In this document: piece by piece, positions 8,881 through 64,000 of the stretch | How positions within the stretch are numbered: position 1 is the first letter of the stretch | How the letters are laid out: the number at the start of each line of letters is the position of its first letter | Assembly: GCF_055900595.2 (NCBI RefSeq) | Contig: NZ_CM148325.1 | Strand: one strand, 5' to 3' | DNA length: 64,000 nt | Made by a program: the position numbers and the translations under genes | Notes under the pieces: model-generated | The model's input: the letters and a program-made list of their open reading frames with translations, nothing else | Told to the model about the DNA's origin: nothing | The model's database searches: none

Positions 8881-9939
8881 GTGGATAAGCCATTTCGAAG
8901 AATTTTGCTCATTAAGATGCGTTTTCATGGGGATATGTTATTAACTACTCCTGTCATTAGTTCGCTGAAAAAAAATTACCCTGACGCAAAAATCGATGTG
9001 CTGCTTTATCAGGATACCATCCCGATTCTGTCTGAAAATCCAGAGATTAACGCGCTCTACGGCATAAAAAATAAAAAAGCAAAAGCCTCAGAGAAAATTT
9101 CCAACTTTTTTCATCTCATCAAGGTATTACGTGCCAATAAGTATGACCTTATCGTCAATCTTACCGATCAATGGATGGTTGCTATACTGGTTCGCTTATT
9201 AAATGCCCGTGTGAAAATTTCCCAGGATTATCATCATCGGCAGTCTGCTTTTTGGCGTAAAAGCTTCACCCATCTGGTGCCGTTGCAGGGTGGAAATGTG
9301 GTGGAAAGTAACTTATCCGTGCTGACGCCACTGGGTCTCGAATCGTTGGTGAAGCAGACAACGATGAGTTACCCGCCTGCAAGCTGGAAACGAATGCGTC
9401 GCGAACTGGATCACGCAGGTGTTGGACAAAATTATGTGGTTATCCAACCTACCGCGCGGCAAATCTTCAAATGCTGGGACAACGCCAAGTTTTCCGCTGT
9501 GATTGATGCCTTACATACACGTGGCTATGAAGTCGTTCTGACGTCCGGCCCGGATAAAGACGATCTGGCCTGCGTCAATGAAATTGCGCAGGGATGCCAG
9601 ACGCCACCAGTAACGGCGTTGGCCGGAAAGGTAACCTTCCCGGAACTTGGTGCGTTAATCGATCATGCGCAGCTGTTTATTGGCGTTGATTCCGCACCGG
9701 CGCACATTGCCGCTGCAGTTAATACGCCGCTGATATCGCTGTTTGGTGCAACAGACCATATTTTCTGGCGTCCCTGGTCAAATAACATGATTCAATTCTG
9801 GGCGGGAGATTACCGGGAAATGCCAACACGCGATCAGCGTGACCGAAATGAGATGTATCTTTCGGTTATTCCGGCGGCAGATGTCATTGCTGCTGTTGAT
9901 AAATTATTGCCATCCTCCACGACAGGTACGTCGTTATGA
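8881..9939 (+). CDS. waaQ: LPS heptosyltransferase III (GT9)
   Basis: ...MRFHGDMLLTTPVISSLKKNYPDAKIDVLLYQDTIPIL...; start ambiguous (GTG 8881 or ATG 8917). Confidence 0.85.
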   Translation: MDKPFRRILLIKMRFHGDMLLTTPVISSLKKNYPDAKIDVLLYQDTIPILSENPEINALYGIKNKKAKASEKISNFFHLIKVLRANKYDLIVNLTDQWMVAILVRLLNARVKISQDYHHRQSAFWRKSFTHLVPLQGGNVVESNLSVLTPLGLESLVKQTTMSYPPASWKRMRRELDHAGVGQNYVVIQPTARQIFKCWDNAKFSAVIDALHTRGYEVVLTSGPDKDDLACVNEIAQGCQTPPVTALAGKVTFPELGALIDHAQLFIGVDSAPAHIAAAVNTPLISLFGATDHIFWRPWSNNMIQFWAGDYREMPTRDQRDRNEMYLSVIPAADVIAAVDKLLPSSTTGTSL

Positions 9940-11060
9940 TCGTTGCTTTCTGTTTATATAAATATTTTCCCTTTGGCGGTTTGCAACGCGATTTTATGCG
10001 TATTGCTCAGACAGTTGCGGCCCGAGGGCATCATGTTCGGGTTTATGCCCAGTCATGGGAAGGCGAATGCCCTGATGTGTTTGAACTGATCAACGTGCCG
10101 GTTAAGTCGCATACCAATCACGGGCGTAACGCGGAGTATTTTGCCTGGGTGCAAAAACATTTACGCGAGCATCCGGTCGATAAAGTCGTTGGATTCAACA
10201 AAATGCCGGGGCTGGACGTTTATTATGCCGCTGATGTTTGTTATGCCGAGAAAGTGGCGCAGGAGAAAGGCTTTTTCTATCGCCTGACGTCACGTTATCG
10301 CCATTATGCCGCCTTTGAGCGGGCAACCTTTGAACAGGGCAAGCCGACACAGTTGCTGATGCTGACGGACAAGCAAATCGCCGATTTCCAGAAACATTAT
10401 CAGACTGAAGCGGAGCGTTTTCATATTTTGCCTCCGGGGATTTATCCTGACCGTAAATATAGCCAGCAGCCAGCCAATAGCCGTGAAAGCTTTCGTAAGA
10501 AAAATGGAATAACAGAACAACAATATTTATTGTTGCAGGTCGGTTCAGACTTCACGCGTAAAGGTGTCGATCGTTCCATTGAAGCACTTGCTTCGCTCCC
10601 GGATTCACTGCGCCACAACACATTGCTATATGTTGTTGGGCAGGATAAACCGCGAAAATTTGAGGCACTGGCAGAAAAACGCGGCGTGCGCAGTAATGTT
10701 CACTTCTTCTCTGGGCGTAACGATGTCTCGGAATTAATGGCGGCGGCGGATTTATTACTGCATCCTGCCTACCAGGAAGCGGCGGGAATTGTGCTGCTGG
10801 AAGCGATTACTGCAGGATTACCGGTTCTAACAACTGCTGTTTGTGGTTATGCGCATTATATTGTTGACGCGAATTGCGGCGTGGCTATTGCTGAGCCATT
10901 CCGTCAGGAAACATTGAATGAGTTTTTACGCAAAGCGTTAACGCAATCTTCATTGCGCCAGGCCTGGGCGGAAAATGCGCGACATTATGCTGATACACAA
11001 GATTTATACAGTCTGCCAGAGAAAGCGGCGGATATCATAACGGGTGGTCTGGATGGTTGA
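9936..11060 (+). CDS. waaG: LPS core glucosyltransferase I (GT4)
   Basis: 374 aa, [37 protein letters not shown]... Confidence 0.92.
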
Positions 11061-11850
11061 ACTGAAAGAGCCGTTTGCCACGTTATGGCGCGGTAAAGAT
11101 CCTTTTGAGGAAGTTAAAACCTTGCAGGGTGAGGTATTTCGTGAACTGGAAACTCGCCGCACTCTGCGCTTTGAAATGGCGGGCAAAAGCTATTTTCTCA
11201 AATGGCATCGCGGCACGACCCTGAAAGAGATAATCAAAAATTTACTCTCATTGCGGATGCCAGTATTAGGTGCAGACCGTGAATGGAATGCGATTCATCG
11301 GCTGCGGGATGTCGGCGTTGATACTATGTATGGGGTGGCATTCGGCGAAAAAGGCATTAATCCGCTGACCAGAACTTCGTTTATTATTACCGAAGATCTG
11401 ACGCCAACTATCAGTCTGGAAGATTACTGTGCTGACTGGGCGACTAACCCACCAGATGTCCGCGTAAAGCGTATGCTTATTAAACGTGTCGCGACGATGG
11501 TGCGCGATATGCATGCTGCGGGCATTAACCACCGTGACTGTTATATCTGTCATTTCCTGCTGCACTTGCCTTTTTCTGGTAGGGAAGATGAGTTAAAAAT
11601 TTCAGTAATTGACCTGCACCGGGCGCAGCTTCGCACGCGCGTTCCACGTCGTTGGCGCGATAAAGATCTTATTGGGCTTTATTTTTCTTCGATGAATATT
11701 GGCCTGACTCAGCGTGATATCTGGCGATTTATGAAGGTATATTTTGCCGTACCGCTTAAAGACATACTCAAGCAGGAACAAGGGCTGCTGTCGCAAGCAG
11801 AAGCAAAAGCCACGAAAATCAGGGAAAGAACGATTAGAAAATCGTTGTAA
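11053..11850 (+). CDS. waaP: LPS core heptose(I) kinase
   Basis: Start at [21 protein letters not shown]; 265 aa. Confidence 0.92.
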
Positions 11851-11865
11851 TTTCCGGAGAGAAAT

Positions 11866-12882
11866 ATGAGTGCCCACTATTTTAATCCACAAGAGATGAT
11901 CAATAAGACAATCATCTTCGATGAAAGGCCAGAGGCGTCAGTGGCATCATCATTCCATGTTGCTTATGGCATTGATCAGAACTTTCTTTTTGGTTGTGGT
12001 GTTTCAATCACGTCAGTTTTGTTACATAACAACGACGTGAGTTTTGTCTTCCACGTTTTTATTGATGATATCCCTGACGCCGATATCCAGCGTTTATCCC
12101 AATTGGCGAAAAGCTATCATACCTGTATCCAGATCCATCTGGTAAATTGTGAACGGCTTAAGGTATTACCGACGACCAAAAATTGGTCTATTGCCATGTA
12201 TTTCCGTTTTGTAATTGCAGATTACTTTATTGATCAACAAGATAAGATCCTGTACCTGGATGCTGATATCGCCTGTCAGGGAACCTTAAAACCGCTGATA
12301 ACAATGGATCTTGCCAATAACGTTGCTGCTGTTGTTACTGAACGCGATGCTAACTGGTGGTCGTTACGGGCTCAAAGTCTGCAGTGTAATGAACTTGAAA
12401 AGGGTTACTTTAATTCAGGTGTCCTGTTAATTAATACACTAGCGTGGGCGCAGGAGTCCGTTTCTGCTAAAGCGATGTCGATGCTTGCTGATAAAGCCGT
12501 CGTTTCCCGTTTAACCTATATGGATCAAGATATACTAAATCTTATCCTGTTAGGGAAAGTTAAATTCATTGATGCTAAATACAATACGCAATTTAGTTTA
12601 AATTATGAATTAAAAAAATCATTTATTTGTCCAATTAATGATGAAACCGTATTAATTCATTATGTCGGCCCGACAAAACCTTGGCATTACTGGGCCGGTT
12701 ATCCAAGCGCGCAGCCATTTATCAAAGCCAAAGAAGCATCGCCATGGAAAAATGAACCGTTAATGCGGCCAATTAACTCAAATTATGCTCGTTATTGCGC
12801 TAAGCATAATTTTAAACAAAATAAACCAATTAACGGGATAATGAATTATATTTATTATTTTTATTTAAAGATAATAAAATGA
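11866..12882 (+). CDS. waaO: GT8-family LPS alpha-1,3-glycosyltransferase (outer core, WaaO/WaaI-like)
   Basis: GT8 hallmarks (YGIDQNFLFGCGVSI, YLDADI); first gene after waaP as in R1/R4 core loci. Symbol by synteny. Confidence 0.6.
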   Translation: MSAHYFNPQEMINKTIIFDERPEASVASSFHVAYGIDQNFLFGCGVSITSVLLHNNDVSFVFHVFIDDIPDADIQRLSQLAKSYHTCIQIHLVNCERLKVLPTTKNWSIAMYFRFVIADYFIDQQDKILYLDADIACQGTLKPLITMDLANNVAAVVTERDANWWSLRAQSLQCNELEKGYFNSGVLLINTLAWAQESVSAKAMSMLADKAVVSRLTYMDQDILNLILLGKVKFIDAKYNTQFSLNYELKKSFICPINDETVLIHYVGPTKPWHYWAGYPSAQPFIKAKEASPWKNEPLMRPINSNYARYCAKHNFKQNKPINGIMNYIYYFYLKIIK

Positions 12883-12898
12883 CATTGAGAAAAGTTAA

Positions 12899-13894
12899 AT
12901 GAATGAATTTATAAAAGAACGGTTTTCGTATTTAGCAGATAATAAAAAAGAAAACGTCCCAGAGCTAAATGTTTCCTACGGTATCGATAAGAATTTTTTG
13001 TATGGTGCTGGCGTTTCAATTTCTTCCGTTTTGATTAATAATTCAGATATTAATTTTGTCTTTCATGTTTTCACTGATTATGTGGATGATGATTATTTAA
13101 AGTCATTTGATGAAACAGCAAAACAATTTAATACCTCAATTATTGTATATTTAATTGACCCAAAATACTTTGCTGATCTGCCGACGTCACAGTTTTGGTC
13201 GTACGCGACATACTTCAGGGTATTGTCCTTTGAATATCTGAGTGAAAGTATTTCCACACTGCTGTATCTGGATGCCGATGTCGTTTGTAAAGGAAGTCTG
13301 AAACCTCTCACAAAAATTATATTTAAAGATGAGTTTGCTGCGGTTATTCCTGACAATGATAGTACTCAGGCGGCATGTGCAAAACGTCTTAACATTCCCG
13401 AAATGAATGGACGTTATTTCAATGCAGGCGTTATCTATGTCAATCTTAAAAAATGGCATGAAGCAAATTTGACACCGTATTTACTCACGCTTTTACGAGG
13501 GGAAACTAAATATGGCTCTCTTAAATATTTAGATCAGGATGCGTTGAATATCGCATTTAATATGAATAATATCTACCTCGCGAAGGATTTTGATACTATT
13601 TATACCCTGAAAAACGAACTTCATGATCGTAGTCATCGAAAGTATCAGCAAACCATTACCGATAAAACAGTATTGATTCACTATACAGGGATAACTAAAC
13701 CATGGCATAGCTGGGCTGGATATCCGTCTGCATCATACTTTAATATCGCGCGTGAACAATCTCCCTGGAAGAAATATCCTCTTAAAGAGGCGCGGACTGT
13801 TGCAGAAATGCAGAAACAATATAAGCATCTGTTTGCCCATGGTGAGTATATAAAAGGCATAACTTCATTAATTAAGTACAAGCTTAAGAAATAA
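12899..13894 (+). CDS. waaT: GT8-family LPS alpha-1,2-glycosyltransferase (outer core, WaaT/WaaJ-like)
   Basis: GT8 motifs (YGIDKNFLYGAGVSI, YLDADV); second GT8 before waaY. Symbol by synteny. Confidence 0.55.
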   Translation: MNEFIKERFSYLADNKKENVPELNVSYGIDKNFLYGAGVSISSVLINNSDINFVFHVFTDYVDDDYLKSFDETAKQFNTSIIVYLIDPKYFADLPTSQFWSYATYFRVLSFEYLSESISTLLYLDADVVCKGSLKPLTKIIFKDEFAAVIPDNDSTQAACAKRLNIPEMNGRYFNAGVIYVNLKKWHEANLTPYLLTLLRGETKYGSLKYLDQDALNIAFNMNNIYLAKDFDTIYTLKNELHDRSHRKYQQTITDKTVLIHYTGITKPWHSWAGYPSASYFNIAREQSPWKKYPLKEARTVAEMQKQYKHLFAHGEYIKGITSLIKYKLKK

Positions 13895-13903
13895 ATTACT
13901 CTT

Positions 13904-14596
13904 ATGATTACAAGTATACGTTATCGCGGCTTCTCATTTTATTACAAAGATAATGATAATAAATATAAAGAAATCTTTGATGAAATACTGGCCTATAATT
14001 TTAAAACAGTAAAAGTATTACGTAATATTGATGATACCAAAGTATCGTTGATTGATACGAAATATGGTCGCTATGTTTTTAAAGTCTTTGCTCCGAAAAC
14101 GAAAAGGAATGAACGTTTTTTAAAATCTTTTGTAAAAGGTGACTACTATCAGAATTTGATCGTTGAAACCGATCGTGTCAGAAGTGCAGGTCTTACTTTT
14201 CCTAATGATTTTTATTTTCTGGCTGAGCGTAAAATTTTCAACTATGCCAGTGTTTTTATCATGCTTATCGAGTATGTCGAGGGCGTAGAGCTCAATGATA
14301 TGCCGATTATTCCAGAAAATGTTAAAGCAGAAATTAAGGCTTCAATGGAAAAATTGCATGCCTTAAATATGCTATCGGGCGACCCACACCGGGGTAACTT
14401 TATCGTTAGTAAAGATGGTGTCAGGATAATTGACCTATCCGGTAAAAGCTGTACGGCAGAGCGTAAAGCTCGTGATCGTCTGGCCATGGAACGTCACCTG
14501 GGTATTGCCAACGAAATAAAAGATTATGGCTACTATTCAGTAATCTACAGAACCAAACTACGCAAATTTATTAAAAAATTAAAAGGCAAAGCGTAA
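13904..14596 (+). CDS. waaY: LPS core heptose(II) kinase WaaY
   Basis: 230 aa, MITSIRYRGFSFYYKDNDNKYKEIFDEILAYNFKTVKVLRN...; kinase-like with DPHRGNF motif. Confidence 0.85.
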   Translation: MITSIRYRGFSFYYKDNDNKYKEIFDEILAYNFKTVKVLRNIDDTKVSLIDTKYGRYVFKVFAPKTKRNERFLKSFVKGDYYQNLIVETDRVRSAGLTFPNDFYFLAERKIFNYASVFIMLIEYVEGVELNDMPIIPENVKAEIKASMEKLHALNMLSGDPHRGNFIVSKDGVRIIDLSGKSCTAERKARDRLAMERHLGIANEIKDYGYYSVIYRTKLRKFIKKLKGKA

Positions 14597-56783: not shown

Positions 56784-56830
56784 GTCGCATCGGGTATTCA
56801 TTGCCTGATGCGACGCTTTCGCGTTTTACC
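56784..56830 (+). terminator. hairpin after aldB (gtcgcatc...gatgcgac) followed by T-rich tract
   Basis: 8-bp inverted repeat read from sequence. Confidence 0.5.
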
Positions 56831-57048
56831 AATTCAAATGTCTACGTCTTGAATGACTGAATATTGATTGAACTTAATTACGAGTCTCCTCGCATCTTTT
56901 CAACAAGTTACTGCACACCGTTATTCTTCTTCCGAACGGCATTCCTGAGTCAACTTTATCTCCCTGACGGCCCATATAAATCGCGCTATCGTGATTGTTA
57001 TTGCTAAGTGTGTGTGTATCGTGTGTATAATCATGGAAGGGCAGGGAT

Positions 57049-57234
57049 GTGAAAAGTGCAGACGTGATCGCCATCCTGAAGCAGCATGGCTGGGAACATA
57101 TTCGAACCCGTGGTAGTCATCATCAGTTCCGCCACCCTGTCCATCCGGGTCTGGTGACGGTTCCGCACCCTAAAAAAGATATTAAGCCCGGTACGCTGGC
57201 GCAAATTGGGCGTCAGGCTGGTTTAACATTTTAA
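57049..57234 (+). CDS. hicA: HicA-family toxin (61 aa), GTG start
   Basis: MKSADVIAILKQHGWEHIRTRGSHHQFRHPVHPGLVTVPHPKKDIKPGTLAQIGRQAGL: HicA-like GSHH...GL(V)TVP(H)PKKD signature; TATAAT at 57025-57030 upstream. Confidence 0.8.
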   Translation: MKSADVIAILKQHGWEHIRTRGSHHQFRHPVHPGLVTVPHPKKDIKPGTLAQIGRQAGLTF

Positions 57235-57250
57235 AATTTCAGGAGGCAAT

Positions 57251-57661
57251 ATGTTTTATCCCGCCTATATCCACAGTGATCCTGACGGCAGCGCCAGCGG
57301 TTTTTTCCCTGATGTTCCAGGCTGTTATTTTGCTGGTGATACGCTGGACAACGCTTTCCAGGATGCGCGAAGTGCACTGGTCGCGCACTTCGAAACCTTA
57401 TGCGAGATGAATGAAGAGTTGCCGCTTCCAGGCTCTGTGGAAACACATCTGGTCCAGCGTGCGCAGGACTTTATTGGCGGGCAATGGTTGCTGGTGGATA
57501 TCAATATGAATCAGTTCGAAGGTCGGGCTGAACGTATCAATATTACGATGCCGAAAAGATTACTGAACAAGATTGATACCTACGTGCGCAATAACCCAGA
57601 CTACGCCAACAGAAGTGCGTTTCTGGCGGAAGCTGCCCGGCGTGTATTGCCGGGCGTTTAA
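57251..57661 (+). CDS. hicB: HicB-family antitoxin (136 aa) with C-terminal ribbon-helix-helix
   Basis: Starts 17 nt after hicA; C-terminal INITMPKRLLNKIDTYVRNNPDYANRSAFLAEAARRVL is RHH/CopG-like. Confidence 0.75.
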   Translation: MFYPAYIHSDPDGSASGFFPDVPGCYFAGDTLDNAFQDARSALVAHFETLCEMNEELPLPGSVETHLVQRAQDFIGGQWLLVDINMNQFEGRAERINITMPKRLLNKIDTYVRNNPDYANRSAFLAEAARRVLPGV

Positions 57662-58041
57662 TCTCGCGTTTCGATGGTGAGCGGGCGGACCAGGCTGTAC
57701 AGCCACAGACCAAAACAAGCGATGGTGCCAATCACCACGGTGAGGAACACACTGACTGACAGGCCTGCAAGCAATCCCGCAGGCAGGGCCAGCAGGCCGT
57801 GGATCACGGTGTCGTTCCATCTCACCTGATCGTAGCCAAACATGCCTAAAACGCCGCAAACCAGACCGTAAATCACCATTGGTGTTCCGAGGCCAATCAG
57901 CAATAAACGGTAGATAATTGAAGGTTTAATACGCTTTATCTGTACTGTGGATGTTTTACTGGGGTTATTCATTAGTTTGGTCAATAGTTCCATTATTTCA
58001 ATATGATAAACCTCGACCTGTTGAAAAGCCAGGTAGCACAC
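57658..58041 (-). CDS. small hydrophobic membrane protein of unknown function (111-127 aa depending on start)
   Basis: Track ORF; two or three predicted TM segments (IIYRLLLIGLGTPMVIYGLVCGVLGMF, GLLALPAGLLAGLSVSVFLTVVIGTIACFGLWLY); 3' end overlaps hicB stop by 4 nt (convergent). Start uncertain. Confidence 0.45.
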   Translation of the reverse strand: MCYLAFQQVEVYHIEIMELLTKLMNNPSKTSTVQIKRIKPSIIYRLLLIGLGTPMVIYGLVCGVLGMFGYDQVRWNDTVIHGLLALPAGLLAGLSVSVFLTVVIGTIACFGLWLYSLVRPLTIETRD

Positions 58042-58154
58042 TTCAGAAAGTATATAAAAAACAATATGTCGTTATATAAATAAGGAAATTGCACTGCATC
58101 ATGGCATTTCATAATATGCGTTAATTGTTCTTTTTTATATTCTCTGAGGGAAAT

Positions 58155-58478
58155 ATGTTCCTGGACTATTTTGCACTGGGAGTGCTTATTTTTGTATTTC
58201 TGGTGATATTCTATGGGATTATTATTTTACATGATATTCCCTACCTGATTGCTAAAAAACGTAATCATCCTCATGCCGACGCCATTCATGTTGCTGGTTG
58301 GGTGAGTCTTTTTACGCTGCATGTTATCTGGCCATTTTTGTGGATTTGGGCCACGCTTTACCGCCCGGAGCGGGGATGGGGAATGCAAAACCATGACTCC
58401 TCCGTTGTGCAACTACAACAGCGTATTGCCGGGCTGGAGAAACAGCTCGCCGACATCAAATCCTCTTCTGCCGAGTAA
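58155..58478 (+). CDS. yiaW: DUF3302-family small inner membrane protein YiaW (paralog of YibI)
   Basis: Start at [46 protein letters not shown]-terminal ~75 aa nearly identical to YibI. Confidence 0.85.
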
Positions 58479-58483
58479 TACTT

Positions 58484-59620
58484 ATGGATTTACTGATTAT
58501 TTTGACCTATGTGGCTTTCGCATGGGCAATGTTTAAGATCTTCAAAATTCCTGTAAATAAATGGACCATTCCCACCGCGGCCCTGGGTGGCATATTTATT
58601 GTCAGCGGTCTAATTCTGTTAATGAACTATAACCATCCGTATACCTTTAAAGCGCAAAAAGCGGTTATTTCTATTCCTGTTGTCCCGCAGGTGACAGGCG
58701 TGGTGATCGAAGTGACGGACAAGAAAAATACGCTGATTAAAAAAGGTGAGGTGCTATTTCGACTGGACCCGACGCGTTATCAGGCGCGGGTGGATCGGCT
58801 GATGGCGGATATCGTTACCGCAGAACATAAACAGCGGGCGTTGGGCGCAGAGTTAGATGAGATGGCGGCGAATACTCAGCAGGCAAAGGCCACGCGGGAT
58901 AAATTCGCTAAAGAGTACCAGCGTTACGCACGCGGCAGCCAGGCGAAAGTAAACCCGTTTTCAGAACGCGATATTGATGTGGCGCGGCAAAATTATCTGG
59001 CGCAGGAAGCCTCCGTAAAGTCATCGGCGGCGGAACAAAAACAGATCCAGAGCCAGCTGGATAGCCTGGTGTTGGGTGAACATTCTCAAATCGCCAGCCT
59101 GAAAGCGCAGCTCGCGGAAGCAAAATATAACCTTGAGCAGACGATAGTGCGTGCGCCGAGCGATGGTTATGTGACCCAAGTGCTGATTCGTCCGGGTACC
59201 TATGCCGCATCGCTGCCGCTACGTCCTGTGATGGTGTTTATACCCGATCAGAAACGACAAATTGTGGCGCAGTTCCGTCAGAACTCCTTGCTGCGACTGG
59301 CTCCCGGCGATGATGCGGAAGTGGTGTTTAATGCTCTGCCAGGTAAGGTATTCAGCGGTAAGCTGGCAGCCATTAGCCCAGCTGTTCCCGGCGGAGCTTA
59401 TCAGTCGACCGGCACCTTACAGACGTTAAACACAGCACCGGGTTCAGATGGCGTTATCGCGACCATTGAACTGGATGAGCACACTGAGTTGAGCGCTTTA
59501 CCAGACGGTATTTACGCCCAGGTGGCGGTTTACTCTGATCATTTCAGCCATGTCTCGGTGATGCGCAAAGTGCTGTTACGCATGACCAGTTGGGTGCATT
59601 ACCTTTATCTCGATCATTAA
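58484..59620 (+). CDS. yiaV: HlyD-family inner membrane protein YiaV (paralog of YibH)
   Basis: 378 aa, collinear with YibH along the full length with high identity. Confidence 0.85.
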
Positions 59621-60591
59621 TCTTCGCTTTCCGCCGCTTGTTCAGGCCGCAGTTGCTGCGACTGAGCAAGCTGGTGGCGAATTTCACGCAGCATTTCATC
59701 CAGCACATACTGGACCCGCCAGGGCTGGTATTCCCGTTTACGGAAGATAGCCACCAGATCCAGCCACCATTCATACGGTTGCTGAAAGCAGGGCACCAGC
59801 GTGCCGTCTTGCAGGTCGCTCTGCACACTTTTGTCTGGCGCAAACACAATCCCCAGGTGATTTCGTGCCAGCTCCAGCGCCGATTGCGTGTTGTCGCAAA
59901 CGTAATTTCCCTTCACGCGATAATCCCGCACCTCTTTACTCCCGGCGACGTTGAAGCGCCAGATATTCGCGTCGTCGATCATCATCGAGTCGATCAAAAT
60001 ACAGGAGTGATGTTCGAGTTCGTCAGGACGGCTAATGGGATGTTTCTCAAGATAGCGCTGACTGGCATAAGCGGTTACGGCATATTGCGTAATAAAACTG
60101 GCAACCAGCGATTCATCTTTTGGTGGAGCATAGCTGATTAAAACATCACAATCATCGGGAAATTCGACACCTTCATAAAAGGCATTACGCTCAAGATTGC
60201 AGGTTTTTAGCGATAAGGTGATATCACCGATATCTTTAATTTTATCGATAACATGTTTGGATAAATAGGTAATTATGCCGGTTGGGGCGTAGATGGTGAC
60301 CCGACCACGTTTCTCATGCTTATAATCTGCAATAAAATTATTAAGTTGCTCGTTTCTGTCCAGCATGTCGTTGATGTACGGTAACAGCGCGGTACCAAAA
60401 GGTGTGAGCATCAGCTGCCGGGTGGTTCGGTCAAAGACTTTTAAACCTACTTTTGATTCAAAATCAGCAAGATATTTGCTGACGTTGGCCTGTGCGAATC
60501 CAAGTACAGTCGCGGCATGGCTGATATTTTCACTGGCAGCGATTACCGAGATAATTTTTAACTCCCGGTACTTAAGTTGTAATTTTGTCAT
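59617..60591 (-). CDS. yiaU: LysR-family transcriptional regulator YiaU
   Basis: 324 aa with N-terminal HTH ([33 protein letters not shown]). Confidence 0.88.
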
Positions 60592-60714
60592 CGCAACAGC
60601 CCAATTATATATAATTTTATATATTACTATATAAATATGAATCTTGCACCGGAGAAATTGTAAGCATTATTATGCCGACTCTTTTTTATCTTATTTTAAA
60701 ATGGAATACCGGAC

Positions 60715-61455
60715 ATGTTAATTAACCGCAATATTGTAGCGTTATTTACGTTGCCTTTTATGGCAAGCGCTACTGCTTCTGAATTATCCATTGGTGCTGG
60801 TGCAGCTTATAATGAATCGCCTTATCGTGGTTATAATGAAAATACAAAGGCAATTCCGCTGATTAGTTATGAAGGTGATTCTTTTTATGTTCGTCAGACC
60901 ACGTTAGGTTTTATTCTGTCGCAAAGTGAAAAAAATGAACTTAGCCTGACCGCATCCTGGATGCCGCTGGAATTTGACCCTGCAGATAATGACGATCATG
61001 CCATGCAACAGCTTGATAAGCGTGATAGTACGGCTATGGCGGGGGTTGCCTGGTATCACCACGAGCGTTGGGGAACCGTGAAAGCCTCTGCGGCTGCGGA
61101 CGTTCTGGATAACAGCAACGGCTGGGTGGGGGAGCTATCGGTATTTCACAAAATGCAGATAGGTCGCCTGTCGCTGACACCTGCACTGGGCGTTCTCTAT
61201 TATGACGAGAATTTCAGTGACTATTACTATGGCATTTCAGAGAGTGAGTCCCGTCGTAGCGGTCTGGCAAGTTATTCCGCGCAGGATGCTTGGGTGCCCT
61301 ATGTCAGCCTGACGGCAAAATACCCGATAGGAGAGCACATCGTATTGATGGCGAGTGCCGGATACAGCGAGCTGCCGGAAGAGATTACCGACAGCCCGAT
61401 GATTGATCGTAATGAGAGTTTTACCTTTGTCACCGGCGTGAGCTGGCGTTTTTAA
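60715..61455 (+). CDS. yiaT: MipA/OmpV-family outer membrane protein YiaT
   Basis: 246 aa with signal peptide MLINRNIVALFTLPFMASA and C-terminal ...VTGVSWRF beta-barrel terminus. Confidence 0.88.
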   Translation: MLINRNIVALFTLPFMASATASELSIGAGAAYNESPYRGYNENTKAIPLISYEGDSFYVRQTTLGFILSQSEKNELSLTASWMPLEFDPADNDDHAMQQLDKRDSTAMAGVAWYHHERWGTVKASAAADVLDNSNGWVGELSVFHKMQIGRLSLTPALGVLYYDENFSDYYYGISESESRRSGLASYSAQDAWVPYVSLTAKYPIGEHIVLMASAGYSELPEEITDSPMIDRNESFTFVTGVSWRF

Positions 61456-61504
61456 TTTACCGGTGGATGTCGGTGCGGCTGGCCTACGCTCTCGCACTGA
61501 CCTT

Positions 61505-61590
61505 CAGGCTTGATAAGACGCGTTAAGCGTCGCATCAGGCAATGTGCACCCTACGTTGGATGCGGCGCGAGCGCCTTATCCAACCTACGG
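61505..61590. repeat. REP/BIME element overlapping the stop codon of the downstream GH127 gene
   Basis: aggcttgataagacgcgttaagcgtcgcatcaggca and ggatgcggcgcgagcgccttatccaacctacgg. Confidence 0.65.
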
Positions 61591-63555
61591 ATGGCAATGC
61601 TTTTCCTCATTCACCCAGATCCGCATTTCGCCTTCACCCCGGTTAGCCCAGCTAAACCACGGGATAAATGTCAGAGTTTGCGGCTGGCGTTTGGCTGGCG
61701 CGCTGTCGTAATGCCACAGCGGTTGCTGCTCTGGATAGCTCTGTTCATACCGGTAACCCGGTGCCTGGATTAAGATCTTATGGCTGAACAATCCCTTACC
61801 TTCAAATGTCGTAAATGGCGCATCGGTGGGCAGCCACAGATTATGCAGTGACTCGCCGTTGTCGGCCTGTTCCAGGCAATACACCAGCGGGCCGCGCTGA
61901 ATCGCCACTTTTCCGGCGACGTGACGCACCAGCGGGTTACCGTAAACGCGACGTACCGGCATTGGCAACGTCAGATTCAGCGTGTCGCCCTCCTGCCATT
62001 CGCGGGTAATGTGCAAATACCCTTTACGAATATCCTGCTCGACCTCTTCCCCATTCAATGTAATCTGCGGCTGTGTGCACCAGTCCGGCAGACGTAAAGC
62101 CAGCGTATGACGCACCGGCTGGGGCGATTCAACCGCAATTGTCACCTGTTCCTGCCACGGATAGTTTCCGCTAACCCGCAGACGCAGCGTGCCATTTTCT
62201 ACCGGCACTTCCATGCTGTTTCCTGCGTAGATGTTGATATACAACGCATCTTCACGCGGCGTGTAGAGATAATGACCAATCGAGGTTAGCACGCGGGCGA
62301 TATTTGGCGGACAACAAGCGCAACCAAACCAACGCTGGCGGATCGGCTTAACGTGATCGTAGATATGGTTGAATTTCAGCGATTTTGGATGTACTTCCAG
62401 CGGATTCACATAGAAGAAATGTTTGCCATCCAGCGCCATGCCGCCGAGCACGGTGTTGTACAGTGCGCGCTCCATCACATCGGCATATTGACTGTCGCCT
62501 TCCATTTCCAGCATTCGCCGGGCGAACATCATCAGGCCGATGGAAGCACAGCTTTCGGCGTATACCGTGTCATTCGGCAGATCGTAATCGCTGCTGAACG
62601 CTTCGCCGCTGCTTTGTGAGCCAATGCCGCCGGTAATATATAACTGACGCTGGGCCATATTGTTCCACAGCCGCAGGCAGTCCTGACGCTTGCTTTCATC
62701 GTGACTTAAACGCGCGAGATGCGCGACGCCGGTCATCAGGTAGACAAAACGTACCGCGTGACCAATGGCGGTTTGCTGCTGTGCGATGGGCAAATGTGCC
62801 TGGCTGTAGGCTTTGTCTTTCACCATCCACGCCGGGCCGTAGGTGTGCCAGTGCGAGGTCTGCCCGCGCTTTTCATATTCCTGGTCGTAATAGTGCGGTT
62901 GCGCACCACGCTGTTCGACAAAATAGTTCGTCAGCGCCAGGTAGCGCGGCTCTTCGGTCACTTCATACAGGCGCATTAGTGCCAGTTCAATTTCCGGGTG
63001 ACCAGGATAACCGTGTAACTTACTTTCACCTGGACCAAATACGCTGTCGATATGATCGGCCAGACGGCAAACCACTTCCAGCAAGCGCCGCTTGCCCGTG
63101 GCCTGGAAGAAGGCGACTCCGGCTTCAATCAGATGACCGGCGCAGTAAAGTTCATGACACTCCGCCAGATTGCTCCAGCGTTCTTTGGGCGCTTTTACCG
63201 TAAAGTAAGTATTGAGATAGCCATCTTCGCACTGGGCGGAAGCGACCAGTTCGATTACCTCGTCAGCAGTTTTTTCCAGTTCGGCATCCGGCTTCTGGCA
63301 CAGCGACCAGGCTACCGCTTCCAGCCATTTGGCGACGTCGCTGTCCTGAAACACCATCCCGTAAAATTCACCGTCTTGCAGTCCTGCGGCAATGCGAAAG
63401 TTTTCAATCGCATGGCTGGGTTCCGCTTCTGGGATACGATCGTTCAAGGCATCCCACTGATAAGGAATCACCACGTCGCGGACCAGTTGTTGGTACTGAC
63501 CGAGGAACGGATCGCTGACCGTCAGTTTATGCAGATCGACTTCCGAAATGTTCAT
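61585..63555 (-). CDS. DUF1680/glycoside hydrolase family 127-like protein (beta-L-arabinofuranosidase-like), about 656 aa
   Basis: Track ORF 61585..63603; start placed at MNISEVDL (ATG 63553-63555) behind an AAGGAG SD; cysteine-rich motif WFGCACCPPNIARV as I recall for the GH127 family. Confidence 0.6.
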   Translation of the reverse strand: MNISEVDLHKLTVSDPFLGQYQQLVRDVVIPYQWDALNDRIPEAEPSHAIENFRIAAGLQDGEFYGMVFQDSDVAKWLEAVAWSLCQKPDAELEKTADEVIELVASAQCEDGYLNTYFTVKAPKERWSNLAECHELYCAGHLIEAGVAFFQATGKRRLLEVVCRLADHIDSVFGPGESKLHGYPGHPEIELALMRLYEVTEEPRYLALTNYFVEQRGAQPHYYDQEYEKRGQTSHWHTYGPAWMVKDKAYSQAHLPIAQQQTAIGHAVRFVYLMTGVAHLARLSHDESKRQDCLRLWNNMAQRQLYITGGIGSQSSGEAFSSDYDLPNDTVYAESCASIGLMMFARRMLEMEGDSQYADVMERALYNTVLGGMALDGKHFFYVNPLEVHPKSLKFNHIYDHVKPIRQRWFGCACCPPNIARVLTSIGHYLYTPREDALYINIYAGNSMEVPVENGTLRLRVSGNYPWQEQVTIAVESPQPVRHTLALRLPDWCTQPQITLNGEEVEQDIRKGYLHITREWQEGDTLNLTLPMPVRRVYGNPLVRHVAGKVAIQRGPLVYCLEQADNGESLHNLWLPTDAPFTTFEGKGLFSHKILIQAPGYRYEQSYPEQQPLWHYDSAPAKRQPQTLTFIPWFSWANRGEGEMRIWVNEEKHCHP

Positions 63556-63565
63556 CTTGTGCTCC

Positions 63566-64000
63566 TTAAGGCTGTACATGACGCTGACGCAGGTCGCTAG
63601 CAATGCGTGACATCATAGGGTTATTGAGTTTGCAAAAGCGGATCGCCATCGCCAGCAGCAGGTGGAACAGCGCAGGCAGCAATGTTTCCATCGCCGCGAT
63701 CCCGCCAAGCGAACTGGCGGTCTGGTTTTCCACGCCTGGCTGGTAGGCGACAAAAATAAACAGCAGGCTGATGATCCCGGCGCTGGAGGCCCAGGCCAGC
63801 TTGATGAAAAACAGATTGAAGGCGAAGTTCATGCCGGAAGAACGTACGCGGGTTTTCCACTCGCCGTAGTCATCGGCAAAGGCCATCAATGAGAAGTGCA
63901 ATGGCAATGTGAAGCCAAGAATCACGCCATTACCAAGGATCACCGCCAGCCACAGCGTTTGATAAGCCGGGCCAGAAGGCAGGAACCACATCAACACCGC
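63566..64000 (-). CDS. glycoside-pentoside-hexuronide (GPH)/MFS-type sugar:cation symporter, 3' portion only (5' end beyond window)
   Basis: Hydrophobic C-terminal 143 aa in track ORF 63566..63997; stop lies 11 nt upstream of the GH127 start on the same strand. Confidence 0.55.
   Translation of the reverse strand, partial: AVLMWFLPSGPAYQTLWLAVILGNGVILGFTLPLHFSLMAFADDYGEWKTRVRSSGMNFAFNLFFIKLAWASSAGIISLLFIFVAYQPGVENQTASSLGGIAAMETLLPALFHLLLAMAIRFCKLNNPMMSRIASDLRQRHVQP

What the first reader, a model, noticed from the sequence alone, without database searches (positions are those of the whole stretch)
61585..64000. GH127-like hydrolase and GPH-type symporter next to yiaT
A two-gene unit (transporter then hydrolase, 11-nt spacer, SD-coupled) follows yiaT on the opposite strand, where I expect the sgb/yiaK-S sugar genes in K-12. 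It looks like an accessory glycan-utilisation locus, possibly for beta-L-arabinofuranosides or related plant oligosaccharides. A REP element overlaps the hydrolase stop codon.
Basis: partly seen in the sequence, partly recalled or inferred. Interest (0 to 1): 0.5.

Follow-up and report, generated by a model that had tools for sequence, protein, structure and literature searches.

The report
E. coli GH127 arabinofuranosidase–symporter accessory operon
This is an ordinary, already annotated sugar-utilisation module (transporter plus cytoplasmic GH127 glycosidase, with an AraC-type regulator just beyond the window) that about 43% of complete E. coli genomes carry next to yiaT and that K-12 has lost, leaving only the ysaC and ysaD pseudogene scraps.

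Summary
On the minus strand, 61585-63555 encodes an intact 656-aa three-domain GH127 protein. It is 55% identical to the solved Geobacillus GH127 beta-L-arabinofuranosidase and 44% to Bifidobacterium HypBA1. The Cys nucleophile, Glu acid/base and Zn(Cys)3-Glu site are all conserved. Upstream is the 3' end of a GPH-family symporter, cut by the window edge. The spacer is 10 nt, not 11, and AAGGAG overlaps the transporter's TAA stop. A REP pair lies between yiaT and the hydrolase, and one REP supplies the hydrolase stop codon.

The full unit has three genes: a divergent AraC-type regulator lies beyond the window, followed by sgbE-sgbU-sgbH-lyxK. K-12 keeps only a 190-bp hydrolase fragment (ysaD) and a 102-bp regulator fragment (ysaC). 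About 2,314 of 5,426 complete E. coli genomes hold the intact module. The same triad, with the same 10-nt spacer, occurs in Salmonella, Klebsiella and Kosakonia under strong purifying selection.

The most likely function is proton- or sodium-coupled uptake of small beta-L-arabinofuranosides, followed by cytoplasmic release of L-arabinose. The substrate is inferred, not shown.

The locus is already annotated and of low novelty.

The parts
60715..61455 (+). yiaT (MipA/OmpV-family outer-membrane protein). A neighbour convergent with the hydrolase, not part of the module.
   Evidence: 246-aa ORF; RefSeq annotation of the 99.7%-identical genome.
61507..61590 (.). REP pair (BIME-like) between the convergent yiaT and GH127 genes. 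One REP lies on the minus strand (core 61512-61536) and one on the plus strand (core 61559-61580). The tail of the second REP contains the GH127 stop codon (61585-61587).
   Evidence: The REP core pattern has 6 hits in the window against 0 in shuffles. Inverted repeats were found. Rfam naRNA4 (REP-derived) scores 67.8 bits against a gathering score of 59.5. Comparing locus forms shows that the tail after ...IWVNEE and the stop codon differ with the abutting REP.
61585..63555 (-). GH127 glycoside hydrolase gene: 656 aa plus a TAG stop, ATG start at 63555, and no N-terminal signal peptide by inspection. Predicted catalytic residues are E318 (acid/base) and C414 (nucleophile). Predicted Zn ligands are E334, C336, C414 and C415.
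   Evidence: Pfam PF07944, PF20736 and PF20737. PDB 4qjy at E = 1e-236 with 55% identity, and HypBA1 3wkw at E = 3e-153 with 44% identity. Residue mapping. RefSeq annotates it as 'glycoside hydrolase family 127 protein'. dN/dS is 0.03-0.09.
63556..63565 (-). 10-nt intercistronic spacer. The Shine-Dalgarno AAGGAG (63562-63567) overlaps the transporter's TAA stop, giving TAAGGAG.
   Evidence: Sequence. The same 10-nt spacer with T(A/G)AGGAG is found in Salmonella, Klebsiella and Kosakonia.
63566..64000 (-). 3' part of the GPH-family (glycoside-pentoside-hexuronide:cation) symporter gene: the last 143 codons plus the TAA stop. The gene continues beyond the window; the full length is 466 aa.
   Evidence: ORF. 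The fragment is identical to the C-terminus of the 466-aa protein of L001. That protein scores 333 bits on TIGR00792 (cutoff 231) and 357 bits on the YagG-like subfamily model (below its cutoff of 610). Pfam MFS_2 matches at 3e-73.

Best explanation
The region is the distal two-thirds of a three-gene, substrate-inducible glycoside-utilisation module: AraC-type regulator <-> GPH symporter -> GH127 hydrolase.

Proposed mechanism:
1. A small beta-L-arabinofuranoside is taken up by the cation-coupled GPH symporter. The most likely substrates are the disaccharide beta-L-Araf-(1,2)-L-Ara or short beta-arabino-oligosaccharides and Hyp-linked arabinosides. These derive from plant extensins, lectins and pectic side chains.
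2. The cytoplasmic, Zn-dependent cysteine glycosidase GH127 cleaves off the non-reducing beta-L-arabinofuranose.
3. The released L-arabinose enters the core araBAD pathway.
4. The two structural genes are co-transcribed and translationally coupled, because the stop codon overlaps the SD with a 10-nt spacer.
5. The divergent AraC-family protein, which lies outside the window, probably activates their promoter.

Shown here: gene order, family membership, an intact active site, the coupling geometry, joint presence or absence of the three genes, conservation across genera, and purifying selection.

Inferred: the identity of the substrate, the coupling ion, the regulator's effector, and the link to araBAD.

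The module is ancestral at this position in Enterobacteriaceae. K-12-like strains lost it through a 4,021-bp deletion plus a 210-bp deletion.
For: Hydrolase family and active site:
- The GH127 three-domain architecture is present.
- It is 55% identical over 630 residues to the solved Geobacillus GH127 beta-L-arabinofuranosidase 4qjy. It is 44% identical over 626 residues to HypBA1.
- HypBA1's E322, E338, C340, C415, C417 and C418 align with identical residues E318, E334, C336, C412, C414 and C415. The roles of these residues are taken from PMC8106489.
- The match to the aceric-acid-hydrolase equivalog is far below its cutoff (455 against 950 bits), and the matches to the Bacteroides GH127 structures 6ex6 and 5mqo cover only part of the protein. 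The enzyme therefore sits with the HypBA1/Geobacillus subgroup.

Transporter: it passes the curated GPH model.

Module integrity:
- The regulator-symporter-hydrolase triad with a 10-nt spacer recurs in Salmonella enterica subsp. houtenae and Klebsiella michiganensis at the same chromosomal position. In Kosakonia sacchari it sits at an unrelated position, so the three genes travel as a unit.
- Presence counts match: 2,314 genomes for the hydrolase and 2,312 for transporter plus regulator.
- dN/dS is 0.03-0.15 for all three genes.

Precedent: in B. longum, extracellular release of beta-Ara2, import, then intracellular GH127 cleavage is an established pathway (PMC8106489; PMC7889515).
Against: - No enzyme assay, growth test or expression data for the E. 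coli protein was found in the searchable literature.
- GH127 contains other specificities, namely aceric acid hydrolase and 3,6-anhydro-D-galactosidase. Identity of 44-55% to characterised enzymes does not fix the aglycone or linkage.
- The 21-kb locus holds no GH121-type enzyme that could release beta-Ara2 from glycoproteins. E. coli would therefore depend on other organisms or on free plant glycosides.
- No sigma-70-like promoter was found by the consensus scan. A CRP-like site in the control region is no better than chance.
- The module has been lost from about 45% of genomes and is frameshifted in at least one, so it is dispensable.
Confidence: 0.62

Rival explanations
1. The architecture and logic are the same (GPH import followed by cytoplasmic GH127 cleavage), but the substrate is different. 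Candidates are a plant secondary-metabolite glycoside carrying a terminal beta-L-Araf, or a non-arabinose sugar handled by other GH127 members such as aceric acid or 3,6-anhydro-D-galactose glycosides.
For: GH127 is polyspecific; the only NCBIfam hit, though sub-threshold, is to the aceric acid hydrolase model. The transporter's nearest named relatives are the uncharacterised YagG/YicJ-type symporters, not an arabinoside carrier. The E. coli locus contains no partner enzyme for extensin degradation.
Against: Full-length identity is 55% and 44% to two enzymes deposited as beta-L-arabinofuranosidases, with all aligned active-site residues identical. The aceric-acid model scores less than half of its cutoff, and the Bacteroides structures align only from residue ~250 onward.
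Confidence: 0.25
2. The module is a cryptic or decaying relic with no current physiological role in this strain. It is on its way to the loss already completed in K-12.
For: It is absent, apart from remnants, from ~2,450 genomes. The hydrolase is frameshifted in strain AVS0575. No recognisable sigma-70 promoter was found.
Against: All reading frames in the window and in the closest genome are intact. dN/dS is 0.086 within E. coli and 0.03-0.06 between genera. The three genes are retained or lost together in thousands of genomes. The control region holds an invariant 13-mer across four genera. An activator-dependent promoter is expected to lack a good -35 element.
Confidence: 0.08
3. The module is a recently acquired horizontally transferred island inserted next to yiaT, as the phrase 'accessory locus' might suggest.
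For: It is variably present in E. coli. In Kosakonia the triad sits at a different site next to an integrase-like fragment.
Against: The same triad lies next to sgbE in Salmonella and Klebsiella at ordinary orthologue-level divergence of 84-89% amino-acid identity. K-12 carries decayed fragments of both end genes at exactly this site. This shows deletion, not an empty site. The variable insert on the other side is actually the yiaWVUT block.
Confidence: 0.05

Closest known systems
Geobacillus stearothermophilus GH127 beta-L-arabinofuranosidase (PDB 4qjy/4qk0). The name Ara127N comes from Lansky et al. 2014 as cited in PMC7889515; linking that name to this PDB entry rests on my own knowledge.
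   Same: 55% identity over essentially the full length. Same three domains and the same CCPPN cysteine motif.
   Different: From memory, the Geobacillus gene belongs to a large L-arabinan utilisation cluster served by ABC transport; I did not check this. The E. coli gene is paired with a single GPH symporter and an AraC-type regulator.
Bifidobacterium longum HypBA1 (GH127, EC 3.2.1.185; PDB 3wkw/3wkx) and its beta-arabino-oligosaccharide pathway
   Same: 44% identity. The nucleophile Cys, acid/base Glu and Zn(Cys)3-Glu ligands are identical (roles from PMC8106489). Both are intracellular enzymes acting after import of a small beta-arabinoside.
   Different: B. longum uses an extracellular GH121 (HypBA2) and an ABC transporter with a dedicated binding protein. 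The E. coli locus has no GH121 and uses a GPH secondary symporter.
E. coli GPH-symporter plus cytoplasmic glycosidase pairs (yicJ-yicI, yagG-yagH, uidB-uidA, melB-melA). The pairings are from my own knowledge.
   Same: The two-gene logic is the same. The transporter's best NCBIfam subfamily hit is the YagG-type symporter.
   Different: The hydrolase family is different (GH127 rather than GH31, GH43, GH2 or GH4). The YagG model scores below its cutoff (357 against 610 bits), so this is a distinct GPH member.
K-12 pseudogenes ysaC (b4648) and ysaD (b4649)
   Same: They are the remnants of this very module. ysaD corresponds to window 61693-61882 (63 in-frame codons, 55 identical). ysaC is the last 33 codons of the regulator.
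   Different: They are non-functional fragments. The ysaC-ysaD gap is used as a neutral chromosomal insertion site (a strain listed in PMC12361893).

Membership tests
CAZy GH127 (beta-L-arabinofuranosidase family, formerly DUF1680) | Three-domain architecture: catalytic (alpha/alpha)6 domain PF07944, middle domain PF20736 and C-terminal domain PF20737 | tested here: met
   Pfam E-values are 7e-112, 4e-24 and 3e-25, covering residues 12-649.
CAZy GH127 (beta-L-arabinofuranosidase family, formerly DUF1680) | Cysteine nucleophile (HypBA1 C417) and glutamate acid/base (E322) | tested here: met
   They align with C414 and E318 of the window protein. Residue roles are from PMC8106489.
CAZy GH127 (beta-L-arabinofuranosidase family, formerly DUF1680) | Zn2+ site formed by (Cys)3-Glu (HypBA1 E338, C340, C417, C418) | tested here: met
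   Identical residues E334, C336, C414 and C415 are present.
CAZy GH127 (beta-L-arabinofuranosidase family, formerly DUF1680) | Hydrolysis of terminal beta-L-arabinofuranosides (EC 3.2.1.185) | not testable with these tools
   This needs an enzyme assay. No published assay of the E. coli protein was found.
NCBIfam NF049879 aceric acid hydrolase (a GH127 equivalog) | Whole-protein score at or above the curated cutoff of 950 bits | tested here: not met
   The score is 455 bits, and the best stretch covers only residues 252-649.
GPH:cation symporter family (TC 2.A.2; TIGR00792) | Score above the curated cutoff of the family model | tested here: met
   333 bits against a cutoff of 231 on the full-length 466-aa orthologue. 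The 143 residues in the window are identical to its C-terminus. Pfam MFS_2 matches at 3e-73.
GPH:cation symporter family (TC 2.A.2; TIGR00792) | Na+/H+-coupled uptake of a glycoside | not testable with these tools
   This needs transport assays.
AraC/XylS regulators (gene outside the window) | C-terminal double helix-turn-helix domain with an N-terminal ligand/dimerisation domain | tested here: met
   AraC (PRK10572) matches at 7e-17 over residues 38-268, below the equivalog cutoff, so this is a family member and not AraC itself. Precomputed Pfam hits on orthologues are HTH_18, HTH_AraC and a weak AraC_binding.
REP / BIME extragenic repeats of E. coli | Imperfect palindrome with the GATGCG(A/G)CG...CG(C/T)CTTATC core, often in inverted pairs between convergent genes | tested here: met
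   Two cores in opposite orientation lie at 61512-61536 and 61559-61580. The window has 6 matches against 0 expected. Rfam naRNA4 is hit above its gathering score.
Bifidobacterium-type HypBA beta-arabino-oligosaccharide cluster | Extracellular GH121 beta-L-arabinobiosidase and an ABC transporter with a beta-Ara2-binding protein next to the GH127 gene | tested here: not met
   Neither is present among the 20 annotated genes of the 21-kb locus or in the Salmonella, Klebsiella and Kosakonia loci. The rest of the genome was not searched.

The most novel reading that the evidence does not exclude
The AraC-GPH-GH127 triad could be a working beta-L-arabinofuranoside scavenging system. It would let roughly 43% of E. 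coli strains, including O157:H7, B strains and APEC/ExPEC lineages but not K-12, cross-feed on beta-arabinobiose or Hyp-arabinosides. Bifidobacteria and Bacteroides release these from dietary plant extensins and pectins. That would make the module a strain-variable gut or plant-niche fitness determinant, and possibly explain its reported co-segregation with invasive IBD isolates (PMC11879602).
Probability: 0.4. Interest if true: 0.35.

Novelty: already known. Interest (0 to 1): 0.15.

Why it matters
The practical value is modest.

- It explains the K-12 pseudogenes ysaC and ysaD as the two ends of a deleted three-gene sugar module.
- It documents that the aldB-sgbE interval is a mosaic of at least three independent indels: the hicAB cassette, the yiaWVUT block and the GH127 triad.
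- It points to an easily testable, strain-variable carbohydrate capability of E. coli, the use of beta-L-arabinofuranosides. This capability has been characterised biochemically only in Bifidobacterium, Geobacillus, Bacteroides and a few others.

It does not reveal a new kind of system.

Tried and rejected
- The 672-aa TTG-start ORF from the mechanical ORF list was rejected in favour of the ATG at 63555. The TTG form would overlap the transporter's last 12 codons. RefSeq and all orthologues start at the ATG, 10 nt after the transporter stop.
- Assignment as aceric acid hydrolase was rejected: 455 bits against a cutoff of 950.
- The consensus sigma-70 promoter scan over the whole module found 0 sites, fewer than in shuffles, so it is uninformative. 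The terminator-like hits were not interpretable.
- A CRP-site search (TGTGAN6TCACA, up to 2 mismatches) gave one hit in the control region (L001 13385-13400), but 8 hits in the locus against 6.7 expected. I do not claim it.
- NCBIfam gave no family for the hicA-like and hicB-like ORFs or for the 127-aa ORF. The HicA and HicB names rest on RefSeq annotation of an aligned genome.
- Literature searches for an experimental study of the E. coli GH127 locus found only a correlative mention in an AIEC genomics paper. The terms tried were GH127, DUF1680, yiaT, sgbE, O157 and beta-L-arabinofuranosidase. The original HypBA1 and Ara127N papers are not held.
- The horizontally acquired island reading was rejected because of synteny in Salmonella and Klebsiella and the remnants in K-12.
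- Structure prediction was not run, because solved structures at 44-55% identity already exist.
Full report
**What is in the sequence**

The window end 57,000-64,000 reads as follows:

| Coordinates | Strand | Feature |
|---|---|---|
| 57049-57661 | + | hicA-like and hicB-like ORFs |
| 57658-58041 | - | 127-aa ORF |
| to 58478 | + | yiaW |
| 58484-59620 | + | yiaV |
| 59617-60591 | - | yiaU |
| 60715-61455 | + | yiaT |
| 61585-63603 | - | long ORF (hydrolase) |
| 63566 to window edge | - | second ORF (transporter) |

Gene names come from the RefSeq annotation of the closest complete genome, E. coli 2013C-4282. It is 99.7% identical over 60715-64000. Window coordinate = L001 coordinate + 51,714 in this stretch.

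**The hydrolase**

The mechanical ORF begins at a TTG (63603). The real start is the ATG at 63555, which gives 656 aa.
- RefSeq annotates the 656-aa form.
- Orthologues in Salmonella, Klebsiella and Kosakonia all start at the equivalent ATG, 10 nt after the upstream stop.

Family assignment is unambiguous.
- Pfam finds the three GH127 domains: catalytic PF07944 at 7e-112, middle PF20736 at 4e-24 and C-terminal PF20737 at 3e-25. Together they cover residues 12-649.
- Against solved structures, the best match is 4qjy (E = 1e-236). [quoted passage not shown]
- The next matches are the HypBA1 entries from Bifidobacterium longum, 3wkw and others (E = 3e-153).
- From the printed alignments, identity is 55% over 630 residues to 4qjy and 44% over 626 residues to HypBA1.

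The active site is intact.
- HypBA1's catalytic acid/base E322 and nucleophile C417 align with identical residues in the window protein, as do the Zn ligands E338, C340, C417 and C418.
- The window residues are E318, C414, E334, C336 and C415. The residue roles are stated in PMC8106489.
- The only NCBIfam hit, aceric acid hydrolase, is far below its cutoff (455 against 950 bits) and covers only the C-terminal 60%.
- The Bacteroides GH127 structures 6ex6 and 5mqo likewise align only from about residue 250.
- The enzyme therefore belongs with the HypBA1/Geobacillus beta-L-arabinofuranosidase subgroup.

The N-terminus, MNISEVDLHKLTVSDPFLGQ, has no hydrophobic signal-like segment. I infer a cytoplasmic location from direct reading of the sequence.

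**The transporter and the coupling**

The upstream ORF ends with TAA at 63566-63568 and is cut by the window edge.
- Its 143 residues in the window are identical to the C-terminus of the 466-aa protein of 2013C-4282.
- That protein passes the curated GPH:cation symporter model TIGR00792 (333 bits, cutoff 231).
- It is closest to, but below the cutoff of, the YagG-type subfamily.
- Pfam gives MFS_2 at 3e-73.

The sequence is TAAGGAGCACAAGATG, so the Shine-Dalgarno AAGGAG overlaps the stop codon. The same geometry, T(A/G)AGGAG then 7 nt then ATG, is kept in four genera. This supports co-transcription and translational coupling, which remain inferences.

**The REP element**

Two REP cores in inverted orientation lie between the convergent yiaT and hydrolase genes, at 61512-61536 (-) and 61559-61580 (+).
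- The core pattern occurs 6 times in the window and never in 100 shuffles.
- The pair is recognised by Rfam's REP-derived naRNA4 model (67.8 bits, gathering score 59.5).
- The tail of the second REP, ...CCAACCTACG, contains the hydrolase's TAG stop in its complement.

Comparing locus forms gives a small extra result. The conserved protein ends at ...IWVNE(E). After that, the window form reads KHCHP*. E. coli strains with a different flanking REP read TSA*. Other genera read L*, TEA* or just a stop. In E. coli, the abutting REP therefore supplies the last few codons and the stop.

**What lies beyond the window, and the K-12 comparison**

In 2013C-4282 the transporter is followed by a 225-bp AT-rich control region and a divergent 271-aa AraC-family regulator. 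Directly after that come sgbE (annotated araD), sgbU, sgbH (annotated ulaD), lyxK and yiaONML. The sgb/yiaK-S genes are therefore not replaced. They sit about 3.9 kb further on.

K-12 MG1655 has only two annotated pseudogenes between yiaT and sgbE: ysaD (b4649, 192 bp) and ysaC (b4648, 102 bp). Pairwise BLAST gives the following picture:

| K-12 relative to the intact locus | L001 coordinates | Window coordinates |
|---|---|---|
| Matches through yiaT plus 27 bp | to 9768 | to 61482 |
| Lacks 210 bp between two GGCTGG hexamers | 9769-9978 | 61483-61692 |
| Keeps 190 bp of the hydrolase C-terminal domain at 89% identity | 9979-10168 | 61693-61882 |
| Lacks 4,021 bp | 10169-14189 | from 61883 onward |
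| Resumes in the last 104 bp of the regulator gene | from 14190 | outside the window |

The ysaD fragment is still in frame, with 55 of 63 residues identical. It carries 21 of 189 nucleotide differences, well above the 2-5% seen in the flanks.

**Distribution**

- Of 5,426 complete E. coli genomes, 2,314 hold at least 80% of the hydrolase gene at 95% identity or more. About 2,450 hold only the ~190-bp remnant.
- The transporter plus regulator are present in 2,312 genomes. The rest hold only the 104-bp regulator remnant.
- The three genes are therefore kept or lost together.
- Carriers include O157:H7, BL21 and APEC strains. Remnant-only strains include K-12 derivatives, O104:H21 and O111:H8.
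- At least one carrier, AVS0575, has a frameshifted hydrolase.

**Other genera**

Proteins 84-88% identical occur in Salmonella enterica, Kluyvera, Klebsiella michiganensis and K. huaxiensis, Kosakonia, Citrobacter, Scandinavium and Enterobacter.
- In Salmonella enterica subsp. houtenae and K. michiganensis, the regulator-symporter-hydrolase triad sits next to lyxK-sgbH-sgbU-sgbE, as in E. coli.
- In Kosakonia sacchari it sits elsewhere, near pth-ychF and an integrase-like fragment, without the sgb genes.
- The triad is therefore the functional unit. Its position next to sgbE is ancestral for the Escherichia-Salmonella-Klebsiella group.
- Nei-Gojobori dN/dS is 0.086 within E. coli and 0.03-0.06 between genera for the hydrolase. 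It is 0.06-0.09 for the symporter and 0.03-0.15 for the regulator. Between genera, dS is saturated.
- The control region keeps an invariant CAGGTCGGAATCG block followed by a T-run in all four genera. It is a candidate operator or promoter element, and this is inference only.

**Mechanism**

The best-supported reading is a classic secondary-transporter plus cytoplasmic-glycosidase pathway.
1. A small beta-L-arabinofuranoside is imported by the GPH symporter.
2. The Zn-dependent cysteine glycosidase hydrolyses it.
3. The L-arabinose feeds araBAD.
4. The AraC-type protein provides substrate-dependent activation.

The precedent is the B. longum pathway. There, extracellular HypBA2 (GH121) releases beta-Ara2 from hydroxyproline-rich glycoproteins, an ABC transporter imports it, and intracellular HypBA1 cleaves it (PMC8106489; PMC7889515). 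E. coli lacks a GH121 in the locus. It would have to rely on material released by other organisms or on free plant glycosides.

The substrate, coupling ion and effector are inferred. I found no experimental work on the E. coli enzyme. The only mention is a comparative-genomics paper reporting that a GH127 protein co-segregates with invasiveness among IBD isolates (PMC11879602).

**Rival explanations**

- The same machinery acts on a different glycoside (confidence 0.25).
- The module is a cryptic, decaying relic (0.08). Intact frames and strong purifying selection argue against this.
- The module is a recently acquired island (0.05). Synteny in other genera and the remnants in K-12 argue against this.

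**Verdict**

- The spacer is 10 nt.
- The unit has three genes.
- The sgb genes are still present beyond the window.
- K-12 is the deletion state.

The genes are routinely annotated by RefSeq as 'glycoside hydrolase family 127 protein', 'MFS transporter' and 'AraC family transcriptional regulator'. The K-12 remnants already have gene names. The finding is therefore already known at the annotation level, ordinary in kind, and uncharacterised only with respect to substrate. Interest is low.

Noticed in passing
window 56829-57577 (ORFs 57049-57234 + and 57251-57661 +): A ~750-bp cassette encoding a HicA-like toxin (61 aa) and a HicB-like antitoxin (136 aa) sits between aldB and yiaW. It is absent from the closest genome (2013C-4282) and from K-12, but present next to aldB in strain JSWP006, where RefSeq names the genes HicA and HicB. 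NCBIfam gave no hit.
   Followed up: partly
window ~57687-61601 (127-aa ORF, yiaW, yiaV, yiaU, yiaT): The whole yiaW-yiaV-yiaU-yiaT block is itself an indel. In E. coli JSWP006 and AVS0575, and in Salmonella enterica subsp. houtenae, aldB (with or without hicAB) abuts the GH127 gene directly. About 1,255 genomes have yiaT contiguous with an intact GH127, out of 2,314 with the gene. The aldB-sgbE interval is thus a mosaic of at least three independent indels.
   Followed up: partly
window 61585-61601: The last codons and the stop of the GH127 gene are supplied by the abutting REP and differ between locus forms: KHCHP* here, TSA* in JSWP006-type strains, and shorter tails in other genera.
   Followed up: yes
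window 61507-61585 (-): There is an Rfam hit to naRNA4 (RF02564, nucleoid-associated ncRNA derived from a REP element) at 67.8 bits against a gathering score of 59.5. It most likely just reflects the REP pair. Whether this copy is transcribed as part of the GH127 or yiaT 3' UTR is unknown.
   Followed up: no
window 57658-58041 (-): A 127-aa ORF with predicted membrane-like hydrophobic stretches lies between hicB and yiaW. RefSeq annotates a shorter 'hypothetical protein' here in 2013C-4282, and K-12-like strain YJX (L002) has a 47-aa version. K-12 MG1655 lacks window 57700-57858. No family was found.
   Followed up: no
L001 13253-13477 (outside the window; control region between the GPH symporter and the AraC-type gene): An invariant CAGGTCGGAATCG block followed by a T-run and CCTTGTT is conserved in Escherichia, Salmonella, Klebsiella and Kosakonia. 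It is a candidate regulator-binding or promoter element. A CRP-like site at 13385-13400 is not above chance.
   Followed up: partly
L009 1949-3244 and 5071-7040 (E. coli AVS0575): In this strain a Fic-family gene is inserted between yiaY and aldB, and the GH127 gene is annotated as frameshifted. This is an example of independent decay of the module.
   Followed up: no
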